Below are positions 12,509 to 18,490 of a stretch of DNA of 64,000 bases, in pieces; within the stretch, counting starts at the first letter, position 1; the number at the start of each line of letters is the position of its first letter. The stretch lies in the NCBI GenBank assembly GCA_964371255.1, contig CAYJKV010000006.1, forward strand, positions 9,806 to 73,805, given 5' to 3'. This DNA comes from an uncultured Candidatus Saccharibacteria bacterium. GTDB lineage: Bacteria; Patescibacteriota; Andersenbacteria; UBA10190. The position numbers and the translations under genes were made by a program. The notes under the pieces were generated by a model. It had not been told where the DNA came from and made no database searches. It saw only the letters and a program-made list of their open reading frames with translations.

Positions 12509-12568
12509 GCTCCAAGGGTCGGAAGACTTCCGAACCAGAATAATGGCTATGAAGAAGCCAATTTGGAC
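12509..12568 (+). repeat. 60-bp direct repeat, copy 1 (58/60 identical to 18431-18490); contains 15-bp palindrome tcggaag-a-cttccga
   Basis: Direct comparison within the window. Confidence 0.9.
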
Positions 12569-12838
12569 GCAAGAAAAAGCGAGGTAATAACTTACCCCAC
12601 TCCATTGCTAACTATTTATTCCGTGCTATTTCCGTGGCACTTGATTATTTAATCAAATAATCAAACGACAACAGTCTTCTACCCCACCCGCTTACTCACT
12701 ATATCTAGGCTGCTGTACTATTAAATGAGGACCCTCTGATACTTGCTATCTAGCACTAAATGTGCTATTCCTCACTCCAGCAGTTTGGCACGTTCATTCC
12801 CAATTTATCACTCGCATTCCTCTTGAAAGGAGGACGCA

Positions 12839-13612
12839 ATGCTCGTTACTAAATGGACTGAAGACGACCTGTCCCTCCTTTGGAGGGAATACAAGTTAGT
12901 CGGTAGCTTCGACCTTCGCAATCGTCTGGTCGAGGCTTATCTGCCTCTCGTAAAGGGTCTCGTCATTGGTTTGATGGGTAGGGCATTCGCCAAATTCATC
13001 GGACAAGACGAGCTAGAAGCAGCAGGCAATTTGGGTTTGATGCAGGCTGTCGAAGGCTTCGACCTAGACCGTGGTATCAAATTCGAGACGTATGCTTCAA
13101 CACGTATTCGAGGTGCAATTCTCGACTGGCTGCGCAACCTAGACTGGATTCCTCGCAAGGTACGCAGCAATGCAAGGCTCTATAACAAAGCTGTCGCTGC
13201 GCTTTCGGGAGGGTCTAGAGAACAACCTACCATTGAAGAGGTCGCTGACTATCTTCACGTATCAATCGAGACGGCGCAAGCACTAGCGCACGACGCTAAG
13301 GGTGCTGAAACCCACGTCAGGCAGGGCGGAGAAGAGGTCCGCGGAGAGTTTGAAGACAACATCAGTAAGACCCCTTCGCTTGATTCTATTCCCGACCATA
13401 GAGAACCCGTTGCCCTGGACGAAATGACGAAGGGGGATGGCTTCGACAATCTCATCGCCTGTCTCAACGATAGGGAACAAATAATCATTGTGCTCTATTA
13501 CCGCGAAAGCTTCACGATGAAGCAAATTGGCCTCATTCTCAGTATGAGTGAAAGCCGAATTTCGCAAATGCACGACCGCGCGCTGCTGAAAATCAAGGAT
13601 TCGTTCCTGTAA
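12839..13612 (+). CDS. Sigma-70 family alternative sigma factor (group 3, FliA/sigma-28-like)
   Basis: Region 2 (YASTRIRGAILDWLR), region 3 and region 4 HTH (ESRISQMHDRALLKI); 257 aa. Confidence 0.8.
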   Translation: MLVTKWTEDDLSLLWREYKLVGSFDLRNRLVEAYLPLVKGLVIGLMGRAFAKFIGQDELEAAGNLGLMQAVEGFDLDRGIKFETYASTRIRGAILDWLRNLDWIPRKVRSNARLYNKAVAALSGGSREQPTIEEVADYLHVSIETAQALAHDAKGAETHVRQGGEEVRGEFEDNISKTPSLDSIPDHREPVALDEMTKGDGFDNLIACLNDREQIIIVLYYRESFTMKQIGLILSMSESRISQMHDRALLKIKDSFL

Positions 13613-13678
13613 CACACAAGGGGTCGCCACGAGGCACCCCTCTTTTCTTCTGAACACACTCTCGTTAAGGAGAACACT

Positions 13679-15551: not shown

Positions 15552-15737
15552 CCATAGAATAAGTTATTTTCATTCTACCATTTTCTTGCTTTCGGTTCGA
15601 GTTAAGTTGGATTATCACAAAAAATAACTAGTCTAGACTAGGTATTTTTATGGCTCGAGATTTGGGACGATTATCGAACTTTAGCTTGGATAGACCAGAT
15701 TAATAATGTTCACAGAAGCGTAACAAATACTTCTGAA

Positions 15738-18335
15738 TTATTGGCTTGCCAGCCTCTGTTTACGTCGCTCTAGCGCTTCCGCACCGCCTTCTAAAATCTC
15801 CACTACTTCTTTTTTAATTTGATCATTTTCGATAGAACCGGATAAGTAGTTAAAGAACGGCTTGCTTCCACCCGTTTTATTAGCTATTAGAACCTCTTCA
15901 CTATCGCCAAGAATAACCAAATTTGCATTATGGGAAACAATAATTACCTGTCTGCCGATTTTTTCGCCCTTTAAAAAATTCACGATTTCTTTTGATATTG
16001 TTTTAGCATCCAGATCATCTTCTGGCTGATCTAATAAAACAGGGTAGTTATAATTATCAAATTTAAAAATAAACTCCAATAAAACTAACATTTTCTCACC
16101 GTCAGACATGCTATGAAAGTTGTTACCACTTTTGTTCTCAATACTTTGGAGAAAATCAATTATAAATCGGTTTCTAAAAAGCTCCGTGATTACAGTTTCC
16201 TCGTCTTTGCCTGCTATTATGCGCAAATCCCCAGACAGTACCCCCATTAGCAATTGTTTCAGTAGATTAGGAAAAATGACCGCATCATAATTCCATTCCT
16301 CTGGATTCTTCAGTAGGTCATTTATTTCCTTATATTTTGAATTGTTTTCCCTTACGGCTTTTGAATTATGATAATTAATATTTTCAGAAATAAATTCCCT
16401 AAAGCTTTTTATGTCGAAATTAGTAGTAACTTTTACCTTGGAAAAATCAAAGTTATCTACTTTTGAAAGCAAGCCATCATAGCGCGCATTATAACCCCAA
16501 TAAAGTCCAATAAGATTATTTCGACTTGTCTCATAGTCGCTAGATAGGATCATCAGCTCATTTGTAATAGTATTTACACTTTGTAAAGCATCCTTCCTAG
16601 CCTGCAGACTTTCTGCTAATTGCAATAATGCTTTGTGTTCCTCAATTTTTTTCCTAAGCGGCAGCAGTAATTCCCTTAATTTAGAAATCTCGATATTTAA
16701 TAATCTTTGCAATTCCTTTAAGGCGGTAATTTCCTGAGATATAAAACCTTTCTTGAATGCCTCATCAGAATCTTTTAGCTTAGCTTCAATCTTCTGTAAA
16801 AATTCAGGGGAAAAATCATATTCCGATACTTTTTCCGCTGTAATAACCGCCTCATTCTTAAGAAGACTTAAAGAAATCGAATTACTCTCAATGATCTTCG
16901 ACTGATTTTCTTTTACGGAGATTTCTGTGATCAACTGTTTATATTGATCTAATTCTTGCCTACTTATCTTTCCACTAGCATCGCCAGCTATTTTGAGTCT
17001 TATTTCCAAATTTTTAATGTCAGTCTTTAGAGACTCTTTCTGGCCTAGTTTTTTTAATATCTGTTTTTCATTTCGTCCTTTCTCTCTTATGGAGAGTAGA
17101 TTCTTGATTAATGATGCAATTTCTAATGAATTTTCAACTTCAAATTTTCTATACTCTTGAAGTTGTTGAGCGAAATCATTTCTGTTTTCAAATAGATTTA
17201 TCAAGAACTCACCTAAATTTTGACTGTCCTCATAAACAAGATCCCCCAAATAACGTTGAGGGATAAAAAGTAGTCCTTTAGTCTTCTCATCGTTTGTATT
17301 GAGTGTGTTTACTGCACCATCCTTCCAGAACACTTGAAAATTCTTGAGCTGCAGAAACTCCGTGCTATTGATTGCTTTTTGATTACACTGCTCGTAATCA
17401 ACAGCATATGCAATGTTCTTGAGTAGATTTGATTTCCCTGTCGCTCGACTACCTATGACAGAATTCATTCCCTCGCTAAATGAAACAACTATTTTCTGGT
17501 TCTCAGTTCCGATATATTCCACTCTATCAATCAGATCGTATAAAGGCTTCTCTTCGGGTTTTAATTCCTGAATTCTTACTCTTCCTTCTGGTTCATAAAG
17601 AATTTGTTTTAAACCTTGAAATGTAGGATCAGCCTTGATCCAACAGTTTTGCTTCGTAGTATAGCTATGTGCATTATGATTATCAGAACATACAATCATT
17701 GGACGATAACCAATGATAGGAAAAACAATTTTTATATAAGCTTCTGCATCTTTTTCTTGTCCCAACTCAAAAACGCCAACACAATCAGCAATATCTTCCT
17801 TTTGCGCCATCTTAGTTGGAAGTGTATTTGTAATTGTCTCTAGAGAGTTAGATTTTGATCCTGCATGAATCGTTACTATTCCGCCTAGACCTTTAATCAC
17901 CCCTGTGCTTGTTTTTAAATCACAATAGATTTGATTGTCGCCCTTTCCACTCTTTTTCTGAGAAGCAATTTCAAGCTTTGCATTTAGTTCTTGAGACAAA
18001 AAATCAAGATCAGAATCCTCGGGAAAAATGCCAATAATATGAATCGGCTCACTACCTCTTGAGTCTGTACAAAGCTCAATTCCAGGAAAAATCACAATAT
18101 CAGATCCTGCTATTTCCTTCAGAGATCTTATCCTATTAATATCCACTAAATGATGATCCGTCACTGCGACAGCACTAATTTCATTTTTCTTAAGAACCTC
18201 AATCAATTCTTCATTAGTTACTGCATTATTGCCGTAATCATAGGAAGAAGGAGTATGAAAATGGAGATCCCATTTTCGCCATTCAGATCCGCGTGGATAT
18301 ATCTTTTTCACCATACTACTAAGTTCGAAAATCAA
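15738..18335 (-). CDS. PHP-phosphoesterase + SMC/Rad50-like ABC ATPase (Ppl-like single-gene antiphage protein)
   Basis: N-terminal PHP motifs (DLHFHTPSS, AVAVTDHH, CSDNHN); Walker A GSRATGKSNLL; ~350-aa coiled-coil insertion; signature MSDGEKM; Walker B VLLDQPEDDLD; H-loop VSHNAN; ~33% GC. Confidence 0.7.
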   Translation of the reverse strand: MIFELSSMVKKIYPRGSEWRKWDLHFHTPSSYDYGNNAVTNEELIEVLKKNEISAVAVTDHHLVDINRIRSLKEIAGSDIVIFPGIELCTDSRGSEPIHIIGIFPEDSDLDFLSQELNAKLEIASQKKSGKGDNQIYCDLKTSTGVIKGLGGIVTIHAGSKSNSLETITNTLPTKMAQKEDIADCVGVFELGQEKDAEAYIKIVFPIIGYRPMIVCSDNHNAHSYTTKQNCWIKADPTFQGLKQILYEPEGRVRIQELKPEEKPLYDLIDRVEYIGTENQKIVVSFSEGMNSVIGSRATGKSNLLKNIAYAVDYEQCNQKAINSTEFLQLKNFQVFWKDGAVNTLNTNDEKTKGLLFIPQRYLGDLVYEDSQNLGEFLINLFENRNDFAQQLQEYRKFEVENSLEIASLIKNLLSIREKGRNEKQILKKLGQKESLKTDIKNLEIRLKIAGDASGKISRQELDQYKQLITEISVKENQSKIIESNSISLSLLKNEAVITAEKVSEYDFSPEFLQKIEAKLKDSDEAFKKGFISQEITALKELQRLLNIEISKLRELLLPLRKKIEEHKALLQLAESLQARKDALQSVNTITNELMILSSDYETSRNNLIGLYWGYNARYDGLLSKVDNFDFSKVKVTTNFDIKSFREFISENINYHNSKAVRENNSKYKEINDLLKNPEEWNYDAVIFPNLLKQLLMGVLSGDLRIIAGKDEETVITELFRNRFIIDFLQSIENKSGNNFHSMSDGEKMLVLLEFIFKFDNYNYPVLLDQPEDDLDAKTISKEIVNFLKGEKIGRQVIIVSHNANLVILGDSEEVLIANKTGGSKPFFNYLSGSIENDQIKKEVVEILEGGAEALERRKQRLASQ

Positions 18336-18430
18336 TAAATCAAGTAAAACCAGTGCTTGATTTTCGAACCATCAAGAAATGGCTCTGCTGACGAGTAGGA
18401 TCAGGTAATTTGATTCACTTGTCCTATTCT

Positions 18431-18490
18431 GCTCCAAGGGTCGGAAGACTTCCGAACCAGAATGATGGCTATGAAGAAGCCAGTTTGGAC
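18431..18490 (+). repeat. 60-bp direct repeat, copy 2
   Basis: Matches 12509-12568 with 2 mismatches. Confidence 0.9.

What the first reader, a model, noticed from the sequence alone, without database searches (positions are those of the whole stretch)
12509..18490. ~5.9 kb accessory island bounded by near-identical 60-bp direct repeats carrying a 15-bp palindrome
Two 60-bp copies (12509-12568 and 18431-18490, 58/60 identical) share the core gctccaagggTCGGAAGaCTTCCGAaccagaa...atggctatgaagaagcca. They bracket a block made of a sigma-28-like factor, an orphan ParB, an M23 peptidase and a Ppl-like PHP-ATPase defence gene. Composition is strikingly heterogeneous: the sigma/ParB pair is about 52% GC while the M23/PHP-ATPase pair is about 33% GC. 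The repeats could be att sites of an integrated element next to the tRNA-Asn/HD-hydrolase locus. Alternatively they are paired parS-like centromere or operator sites for the encoded ParB, since the 7-1-7 palindrome is the kind of site ParB/KorB proteins bind. Either way this is an unusual modular arrangement.
Basis: partly seen in the sequence, partly recalled or inferred. Interest (0 to 1): 0.7.

Follow-up and report, generated by a model that had tools for sequence, protein, structure and literature searches.

The report
Duplicated leader module flanking defence genes
The two 60-bp repeats are real, but they are two copies of the front end of a longer conserved non-coding element of a Parcubacteria (candidate phyla radiation, CPR) genome that sits beside imported low-GC defence genes, not proven ends of one mobile island or ParB binding sites.

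Summary
Observation confirmed. The 60-mers at 12509-12568 and 18431-18490 are 58/60 identical, sharply bounded, and the only two copies in 64 kb. The gene calls and the tRNA-Asn (split by a group I intron) also hold.

Interpretation only partly holds.
1. The bracketed block is not one island. The FliA/WhiG-like sigma plus ParB pair (51-53% GC) is adjacent in all 8 Parcubacteria relatives examined, none carrying the repeat. Only M23 (41% GC) and the TrlF/Ppl-like ATPase (35% GC) look imported.
2. No recombinase lies in or near the block, and the tRNA-Asn end is not part of the repeat.
3. The left copy is the 5' part of an element of at least 165 nt: a structured module, a 14-codon ORF and further hairpins. 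It is 82% identical to a copy in a Candidatus Andersenbacteria metagenome-assembled genome (MAG) whose orthologous gene is only 67% identical. The right copy is a stand-alone 67-nt short form.
4. In that genome a long form and a decayed short form bracket a low-GC 6-kb restriction-modification block.

Best reading (about 0.4): a lineage-restricted leader-like element whose 5' module marks where defence DNA was recombined in. ParB binding is unsupported. Moderate interest; only two genomes carry it.

The parts
12502..12568 (+). Left copy of the roughly 67-nt module. The identity block with the right copy is 12509-12568; the 7-nt 5' flank has diverged (caataga).
   Evidence: CM 96.4 bits.
12502..12666 (+). 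Long form of the conserved non-coding element: module, small ORF and hairpins. Window 12509-12666 is 82% identical over 158 nt to L025:9586-9741.
   Evidence: The fold of 12505-12710 has z = -3.9.
12519..12533 (.). Perfect 7-1-7 palindrome TCGGAAGACTTCCGA, left copy.
12543..12587 (+). 14-codon ORF MAMKKPIWTQEKAR*. The Andersenbacteria copy encodes MAMKKPIWAQEKVR*, with the same length and stop; of 5 nucleotide changes, 3 are synonymous.
   Evidence: sequences.
12623..12664 (+). Terminator-like hairpin (12623-12640, followed by a T-rich tail), then the AT-rich palindrome TTGATTATTTAATCAA and a repeated half-site.
12839..13612 (+). FliA/WhiG-like sigma-70 family factor; part of a resident conserved pair.
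13679..14599 (+). ParB (ParB_N plus HTH_ParB). Belongs to a Parcubacteria-wide family that was always found next to the sigma gene.
14724..15551 (-). M23 peptidase-like protein, 40.8% GC.
15738..18314 (-). PHP plus SMC-type ATPase of the TrlF family (Ppl-like), 35% GC. Candidate defence gene.
18424..18490 (+). Right copy, a stand-alone short form: 7-nt flank ctattct plus the 60-mer, ending at TTTGGAC. It is 63/67 identical to the Andersenbacteria copy.
   Evidence: CM 94 bits.
18441..18455 (.). Palindrome TCGGAAGACTTCCGA, right copy.
18515..19117 (-). HD_3 family hydrolase (right flank).
19156..19535 (-). tRNA-Asn(GUU) interrupted by a 307-nt group I intron (19195-19501) at position 35/36. Not part of the repeat.
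   Evidence: PMC13011429.

Best explanation
The repeats are two copies of the 5' module of a lineage-restricted conserved non-coding element. The module is about 67 nt. It can fold into a closing helix with two hairpins. It contains a perfect 15-bp palindrome and the start of a tiny ORF.

The left copy is the full long form: the module, a 14-codon ORF and further hairpins including a terminator-like stem. It lies as a leader about 270 nt upstream of the resident sigma-parB operon. The right copy is a truncated stand-alone short form. It directly abuts the start of the low-GC M23 plus TrlF/Ppl-like block.

Shown:
- The element exists in long and short forms.
- It is better conserved than neighbouring genes between two Parcubacteria genomes.
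- In both genomes a long and a short copy lie about 6 kb apart in the same orientation, with low-GC defence genes between them.
- Sigma-parB is core DNA.

Inferred: low-GC defence DNA was recombined in at or beside this element. This could have happened by a crossover within the 60-nt module, or by arrival of the defence block together with its own module copy, as seen next to DUF8370 in the Andersenbacteria genome. Either route would use homologous recombination or a recombinase encoded elsewhere. The repeats would then be boundary scars or anchors of that event.

The element's own job is most likely cis-regulatory. Either it is a structured leader RNA with an upstream small ORF, or its palindrome is an operator. 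That remains inference.
For: Repeat reality and low copy number:
-.
- One real match in one genome among 185,579 species representatives.
- None in JGI metagenomes, IMG/VR, or the phage and plasmid collections.

Long form shared with the Andersenbacteria MAG:
- 82% identity over 158 nt and 95% over the first 65 nt, whereas the orthologous GH130 gene is 67% identical at nucleotide level and 60% at protein level.
- The short form has the same 3' limit in both genomes.
- L025 copies score 95.7 and 59.5 bits with the covariance model.

Low GC between copies:
- In L025, 40.2% between the copies against 47.7-48.5% in the flanks. The block holds two DNA methyltransferases and DUF8370.
- In the window the low-GC block (35-41%) ends about 110 nt from the right copy.

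Other points:
- Sigma-parB is conserved without the repeat.
- Predicted fold: closing helix plus two hairpins whose limits coincide with the repeat limits. Three A-to-G changes keep pairs as G.U on the + strand.
- The small ORF is conserved in length, with 3 of 5 changes synonymous.
Against: - Only two genomes and four copies are available. Covariation is not significant (shuffles reach the observed values in 95-124 of 500).
- The order of the forms differs along the element's strand: long then short in the window, short then long in L025. One polar integration model cannot fit both.
- In the window no module copy lies at the parB/M23 junction, so the low-GC block alone is not bracketed.
- No recombinase was found nearby.
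- No empty site was found in a relative.
- The small-ORF signal (3 synonymous changes of 5) has p of about 0.1 on a rough binomial estimate of mine.
Confidence: 0.4

Rival explanations
1. The two copies are paralogous instances of a small regulatory RNA or leader (structured module plus tiny ORF). Each acts locally. They play no part in DNA rearrangement, and their position around low-GC genes is coincidental.
For: - The fold limits coincide with the repeat limits, and the changes are wobble-compatible on the + strand.
- The 14-codon ORF is conserved.
- The long form lies upstream of, and on the same strand as, a gene in both genomes.
Against: - The right copy has no downstream + strand gene; it runs antisense into the 3' end of the HD gene.
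- The second Andersenbacteria copy is decayed, with its palindrome and start codon lost.
- A low-GC block is bracketed in L025.
- Covariation is not significant.
Confidence: 0.25
2. The whole 5.9 kb is one integrated element, and the 60-mers are its attL and attR. They would have formed by crossover between a circular form carrying an intact element and a chromosomal copy.
For: - The repeats are direct and near-identical.
- The right copy keeps the native 7-nt 5' flank and the left copy keeps the native 3' extension. The two are contiguous in the Andersenbacteria copy, a P-O-P' pattern.
- ParB is a typical plasmid gene.
Against: - The block holds no integrase, replication initiator or ParA.
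- Sigma-parB is an adjacent pair in 8/8 relatives, in one (L011) beside housekeeping genes, and has resident GC.
- DsrE-SHOCT lies about 8 kb upstream of sigma-parB in relative L012 too.
- Composition inside the block is bimodal.
- The tRNA is not part of the repeat.
Confidence: 0.15
3. The palindromes are parS-like or operator sites bound by the adjacent ParB.
For: - The 15-bp palindrome is perfect, and its innermost bases are complementary although an RNA hairpin would not need that.
- Two copies flank parB within 6 kb.
- No canonical parS occurs in the window.
Against: - The palindrome is absent near sigma-parB in seven relatives, whose ParB proteins are 57-76% identical to this one.
- Conservation covers 67 to 165 nt, not only the palindrome.
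- In L025 no parB lies within 21 kb, and the second copy has lost the palindrome.
Confidence: 0.1
4. Either a template/variable repeat pair (TR/VR) of a diversity-generating retroelement (DGR), since both mismatches are A in the left copy and G in the right, or an assembly artefact.
For: - Both differences are A to G.
- A DGR lies near the Andersenbacteria copy.
Against: - No reverse transcriptase was found in the window. The L025 RT has no window homologue, and the Pfam scans found none.
- Only two of the repeat's many adenines differ.
- The right copy is not at the 3' end of a gene.
- Independent assemblies from several samples give the identical arrangement.
Confidence: 0.03

Closest known systems
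Genomic islands flanked by direct repeats derived from the end of the target gene (tRNA or tmRNA-type att sites, or SXT at the 5' end of prfC)
   Same: - Low-copy direct repeats of about 60 nt.
- One complete copy of a conserved non-coding unit and one partial copy.
- Low-GC defence cargo next to them.
- The partial copy decays, as in L025.
   Different: - There is no integrase.
- The repeated part is the 5' end of an unannotated leader-like element, not the 3' end of a tRNA.
- Conserved core genes (sigma-parB) lie between the copies in the window.
- The order of the long and short forms differs between the two genomes.
Recombinase-in-trans modules (elements that integrate using the host Xer recombinases, pdif modules, integron attC cassettes)
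   Same: - Cargo of changing content lies between copies of one short structured or palindromic site.
- No recombinase gene lies inside the unit.
   Different: - The site has no XerC/D-type 11-6-11 architecture or attC R/L boxes.
- Only two copies occur per locus.
- No recombination was demonstrated.
ParB-parS or KorB-operator sites
   Same: A perfect palindrome lies close to a parB gene, on both sides of it.
   Different: - It is not the canonical 16-bp parS.
- It is not conserved with the ParB family in relatives.
- It is embedded in a much longer conserved element.
Leader-peptide or attenuator-type 5' leaders
   Same: - A short conserved ORF is followed by hairpins.
- In the window, a terminator-like stem with a T-rich tail lies upstream of an operon.
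   Different: - It matches no known leader family (no Rfam match).
- The terminator-like stem is not conserved in the second genome.
- Expression is untested.

Membership tests
Integrated element with attL/attR | Direct repeats at both ends | tested here: met
   58/60 identity, direct orientation, 5922 bp apart.
Integrated element with attL/attR | Integrase or recombinase gene inside or adjacent | tested here: not met
   Pfam and NCBIfam scans of all four ORFs in the block and of the flanks found none. The only recombinase fragment in the window is at 42186-42602.
Integrated element with attL/attR | Repeat derived from the neighbouring tRNA gene end | tested here: not met
   The 3' end of tRNA-Asn occurs once, allowing up to 3 mismatches. 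The repeat lies 666 bp away, beyond the HD gene.
Integrated element with attL/attR | Cargo absent from relatives (empty site) | tested here: inconclusive
   Sigma-parB is present in all relatives examined, without repeats. No relative close enough to show the parB-to-HD interval was retrievable.
ParB-parS centromere | Canonical parS TGTTNCACGTGNAACA | tested here: not met
   No match with up to 3 mismatches in the window.
ParB-parS centromere | Site co-conserved with the ParB family near parB | tested here: not met
   The palindrome is absent from the fetched loci of L011-L013. No TCGGAAG-type 7-nt-arm palindrome lies within 900 nt upstream of sigma or 400 nt downstream of parB in L011-L013, L021, L023, L024 and L026.
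ParB-parS centromere | ParB binds the site | not testable with these tools
   Needs EMSA, ChIP or DAP-seq.
Known RNA families (Rfam 15) | Covariance-model match to the repeat or the long form | tested here: not met
   Only the group I intron and a tRNA match in the window. Nothing else matches in 12000-20000 at E <= 1.
Structured RNA (new family) | Covariation supporting the fold | tested here: inconclusive
   Four sequences only. 82.5% of cells are paired, with one compensatory pair, no better than the shuffles. Three changes are G.U-compatible.
REP/MITE-type high-copy repeat | Many dispersed copies | tested here: not met
   Two copies in 64 kb. One other genome among 185,579 species representatives. 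None in JGI metagenomes or IMG/VR.
Ppl anti-phage protein | Full-length match above the curated cut-off | tested here: not met
   NCBIfam Ppl_antiphage scores 140 bits against a cut-off of 1000. The TrlF family model scores 449 against 350, so that cut-off is met. PADLOC Ppl E = 3.5e-38, best-scoring stretch residues 738-863.
DGR template/variable repeat | Reverse transcriptase nearby, and variable repeat at the 3' end of a target gene | tested here: not met
   No RT was found in the window. The right copy is intergenic.

The most novel reading that the evidence does not exclude
The roughly 67-nt structured module is a new kind of recombination site in Patescibacteria. Blocks of defence genes would be inserted or exchanged at it by a recombinase encoded elsewhere, making it a CPR counterpart of attC or pdif-type cassette boundaries. 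The long form would act as the resident docking site in front of an operon.
Probability: 0.1. Interest if true: 0.75.

Novelty: new member of a known kind. Interest (0 to 1): 0.35.

Why it matters
CPR/Patescibacteria genomes are tiny, and little is known about how they acquire defence genes or regulate their operons. An unannotated element conserved better than the neighbouring genes, and sitting at the edges of low-GC defence blocks in two genomes, is a concrete handle on both questions. It also corrects a tempting mis-annotation: the sigma-ParB pair here is core DNA, not island cargo. With only two genomes carrying the element, the significance stays modest until more copies are found.

Tried and rejected
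- tRNA-linked att site: the tRNA-Asn 3' end is not repeated.
- Canonical parS: absent.
- Palindrome conserved with ParB in relatives: no.
- Known RNA family: no Rfam match.
- tRNA-like reading of the module: inspected by eye. The hairpin 2 loop AUGAAGA could mimic a GAA anticodon loop, but there is no D or T arm, and ARAGORN reports no tRNA at either repeat.
- DGR template/variable repeat: no RT found.
- Assembly artefact: independent assemblies give the identical arrangement.
- More copies of the element. None turned up in any of these searches:
  - the second JGI metagenome scan, which used a motif from the 3' part of the long form, after the first scan with the 24-mer;
  - three IMG/VR scans;
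  - the phage and plasmid BLAST collections;
  - nhmmer and covariance-model searches of all fetched loci.
- Element upstream of TrlF-like or DUF8370 homologues elsewhere (L027, L028): absent.
- A possible third copy at 9776-9830 matches 19/22 nt including the flank, but the covariance model scores it only 7.2 bits, E = 8. It is treated as unconfirmed.
- Strain variants among the ENA contigs: all have the same arrangement.
- An empty-site test could not be done.
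Full report
**1. The observation**

The two 60-mers (12509-12568 and 18431-18490) are 58/60 identical. They are in direct orientation, 5922 bp apart, and their borders are sharp. The palindrome TCGGAAGACTTCCGA and the 18-mer ATGGCTATGAAGAAGCCA each occur exactly twice in 64 kb. 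Chance expectation is 0.15 and 0.05. A covariance-model scan with filters off finds no other significant copy.

The window matches metagenome contigs from one ENA study. Every independent assembly that spans the region carries both copies in the same arrangement. It is therefore not an assembly artefact.

**2. Gene content and composition**

Pfam, PADLOC and NCBIfam confirm the gene calls.

| Coordinates | Strand | Call | GC |
|---|---|---|---|
| 12839-13612 | + | Sigma-70 family factor, closest to FliA/WhiG, below curated cut-offs | 50.6% |
| 13679-14599 | + | ParB_N plus HTH_ParB | 53.1% |
| 14724-15551 | - | M23 peptidase-like | 40.8% |
| 15738-18314 | - | PHP plus SMC-type ATPase | 35.0% |

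The ATPase passes the NCBIfam TrlF-family cut-off (449 vs 350 bits). It matches the Ppl model only partially (140 vs 1000 bits). The window mean is 46.1% GC.

To the right lie an HD_3 hydrolase and a tRNA-Asn(GUU). Default ARAGORN misses this tRNA because a 307-nt group I intron sits at position 35/36. That trait was described for Patescibacteria in PMC13011429. The rest of the window is chromosomal. It holds dnaG-rpoD, fpg, pyruvate kinase and a Cpn60/GroEL-family chaperonin. No integrase was found.

**3. The bracketed block is not one island**

The ParB belongs to a family spread through Parcubacteria. The homology search returned 229 hits, including proteins labelled Harrisonbacteria, Nomurabacteria and Sungbacteria.

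In all eight relatives whose contigs I fetched, a sigma gene of the same family lies immediately upstream of parB. The ParB proteins of these relatives are 57-76% identical to the window's. The outer neighbours differ. In L011 they include rplJ/rplL, clpB and the mraZ-rsmH cluster. In L012 the DsrE-SHOCT pair seen left of the window's repeat lies about 8 kb upstream of sigma-parB.

None of these relatives has the 60-mer or its palindrome near sigma-parB. In the two closest lineages (L021/L022 and L023) the long intergenic region upstream of sigma holds a tRNA gene instead.

Sigma-parB is thus resident core DNA with resident GC. Only the M23 plus TrlF-like pair looks imported. TrlF-like homologues elsewhere sit in defence contexts, for example between a DNA methyltransferase with a ResIII helicase and resolvase genes in L027.

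**4. What the 60-mer is part of**

A scan of 185,579 species-representative genomes with an 18-mer from the repeat gave seven hits. By base counting I expected about 17 by chance. Only the Candidatus Andersenbacteria hit was inspected. It continues to match beyond the 18-mer on both sides. The other six are in unrelated taxa and were not examined.

Fetching its contig (L025) showed that this copy is a long form. It consists of the 7-nt flank ctattct, the 60-mer, and about 100 nt more. It is 82% identical over 158 nt to window 12509-12666, and 95% identical over the first 65 nt to the right copy. The only orthologous gene shared by the two stretches (GH130) is 67% identical at nucleotide level and 60% at protein level. 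The element is therefore under stronger constraint than coding DNA, or it moved recently.

The four copies are these:
- The window's left copy is the long form. Its 7-nt 5' flank has diverged.
- The window's right copy is a short form, the 7-nt flank plus the 60-mer, ending exactly at TTTGGAC.
- L025 has the long form at 9586-9748.
- L025 also has a second, decayed short copy (72% identity; 59.5 bits with the covariance model). It lies 6.06 kb away in the same orientation and has the same 3' limit.

The 6 kb between the L025 copies is 40.2% GC against 47.7-48.5% outside. It holds DUF8370, two DNA methyltransferases, three ORFs of unknown function and a NUDIX gene.

Over the 67 nt the window's right copy is closer to the Andersenbacteria copy (63/67) than to the left copy (61/67). 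Within the 60-mer alone, the two window copies are closest to each other.

**5. Anatomy of the element**

The module is predicted to fold into a closing helix with two hairpins. The limits of that fold coincide with the limits of the repeat.

Three of the four differences between the left copy and the Andersenbacteria copy in this part are A-to-G changes at A-U pairs, and they keep pairing as G.U on the + strand only. One compensatory pair occurs in a downstream hairpin. With four sequences this is not statistically significant.

A 14-codon ORF starts inside hairpin 2. It reads MAMKKPIWTQEKAR* in the window and MAMKKPIWAQEKVR* in L025. Length and stop codon are the same, and three of five nucleotide changes are synonymous. 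This is suggestive, not proof.

Downstream features are these:
- A GGTAA-N4-TTACC hairpin overlaps the stop codon.
- In the window, a terminator-like stem with a T-rich tail lies at 12623-12640.
- An AT-rich palindrome lies at 12641-12656.

No Rfam family matches.

One argument favours a DNA operator. The palindrome is perfect right to its centre, which an RNA hairpin would not require.

**6. Mechanism**

The most economical reading is that the element is a portable cis-regulatory leader. In the window it lies in front of sigma-parB. In L025 it lies in front of an unrelated 153-codon ORF. Its 5' module marks places where low-GC defence DNA has been recombined in.

Two facts support a role at DNA level. 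The module brackets a compositionally foreign block in L025. In the window the right copy sits about 110 nt from the start of the TrlF-like gene, in the same position and orientation as the L025 copy relative to DUF8370.

How the duplication arose is inferred. It may have been a crossover within the module, or the defence block may have arrived with its own module copy.

Points against this reading:
- The order of long and short forms is opposite in the two genomes.
- No module remnant lies at the parB/M23 junction.
- No recombinase lies nearby.
- No empty site was found.

I put this reading at about 0.4.

**7. Rivals**

| Rival | Weight | Main point |
|---|---|---|
| Two paralogous regulatory RNAs with no role in rearrangement | 0.25 | Fits the fold and the small ORF. 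Does not explain the orphan right copy, the decayed L025 copy or the GC boundaries. |
| One 5.9-kb integrated element with attL/attR | 0.15 | Supported by the P-O-P' pattern of flanks. Contradicted by the core nature of sigma-parB, the bimodal composition and the missing integrase. |
| ParB operator or parS | 0.10 | The palindrome is attractive. It is not conserved with the ParB family, and it sits inside a much longer conserved element. |
| DGR repeat pair or assembly artefact | 0.03 | No reverse transcriptase found. Independent assemblies agree. |

**8. Comparison with known systems, and novelty**

The arrangement works most like islands bounded by a partial duplicate of a conserved non-coding target. 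It also resembles recombinase-in-trans modules. It fails the membership tests for a classical integrase island, for parS, for REP/MITE repeats and for every Rfam family.

I rate it a new member of a known kind: repeat-bounded acquisition of defence genes next to a conserved non-coding element. The element itself is unannotated. Interest is moderate (0.35), because only two genomes carry it and its function is untested.

Noticed in passing
window 19156-19535 (-): tRNA-Asn(GUU) is interrupted by a 307-nt group I intron at position 35/36, so default ARAGORN misses it. The trait is known in Patescibacteria (PMC13011429).
   Followed up: yes
window 39439-39629 and 44017-44206: A second pair of direct repeats, about 190 nt each with long stretches of 100% identity, lies 4.58 kb apart. 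They bracket unknown ORFs, a serine-recombinase Zn-ribbon fragment (42186-42602) and a LexA-DNA-binding-like ORF (43326-43877). This looks like a decayed integrated element.
   Followed up: partly
window 12839-14599; L011, L012, L013, L021-L024, L026: A FliA/WhiG-like sigma gene is immediately followed by parB in the window and in all 8 Parcubacteria relatives examined, with no ParA beside it. This is a conserved, uncharacterised gene pair.
   Followed up: partly
window 53598-54024 (-); L021:994-1422 vs L022: A GIY-YIG ORF overlaps the 3' part of tRNA-Ser(UGA). In a relative, a 370-bp insertion that, translated by eye, encodes a GIY-YIG-type ORF (it is 35% identical to the window's GIY-YIG ORF) is flanked by a 58-nt duplication of tRNA-Glu(CUC). 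It is present in one contig (L021) and absent in another (L022).
   Followed up: partly
window 9776-9830: A possible third, degenerate copy of the module (caattcaGCTCCAcGGGTCGGA, 19/22 matches to the left copy including its flank) lies between an unknown ORF and the Arr-ms gene. The covariance model scores it only 7.2 bits (E = 8), so it is unconfirmed.
   Followed up: yes
window 12682-12705; L025:5526-5554 (+) and 9049-9077 (-): The motif CCCCAC-N7/8-ACTCACTATATC follows the element in the window. It recurs as an inverted pair around the DGR cassette of the Andersenbacteria contig. It may be a promoter or a cassette boundary.
   Followed up: no
L025:6489-9098 and 930-1049: The Andersenbacteria contig carries a DGR: an RT gene, a bAvd gene and a 132-nt repeat pair at 6994 and 7483 that I read as its template and variable repeats. 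It also carries a LOOT RNA (Rfam RF03000) between a MerR/HTH_17 gene and a restriction-modification system. The same 27-nt sequence precedes both DUF8370 and the D12 methyltransferase (9745-9771 and 11411-11437).
   Followed up: no
window 14724-18314; L028:6001-8076; L027:1960-8583: An M23 peptidase gene follows the TrlF-like ATPase here and follows a DUF8370 homologue in L028. The two M23 proteins are not close relatives. A TrlF-like homologue lies directly after a DNA methyltransferase and a ResIII helicase in L027.
   Followed up: partly
window 60817-60980: A tandem array of a 21-nt unit (six overlapping registers). Whether it is coding was not examined.
   Followed up: no
window 9851-10621 (-): An Arr-ms rifampin ADP-ribosyltransferase domain is fused to TPR repeats, in a roughly 40% GC stretch left of the repeat.
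   Followed up: no
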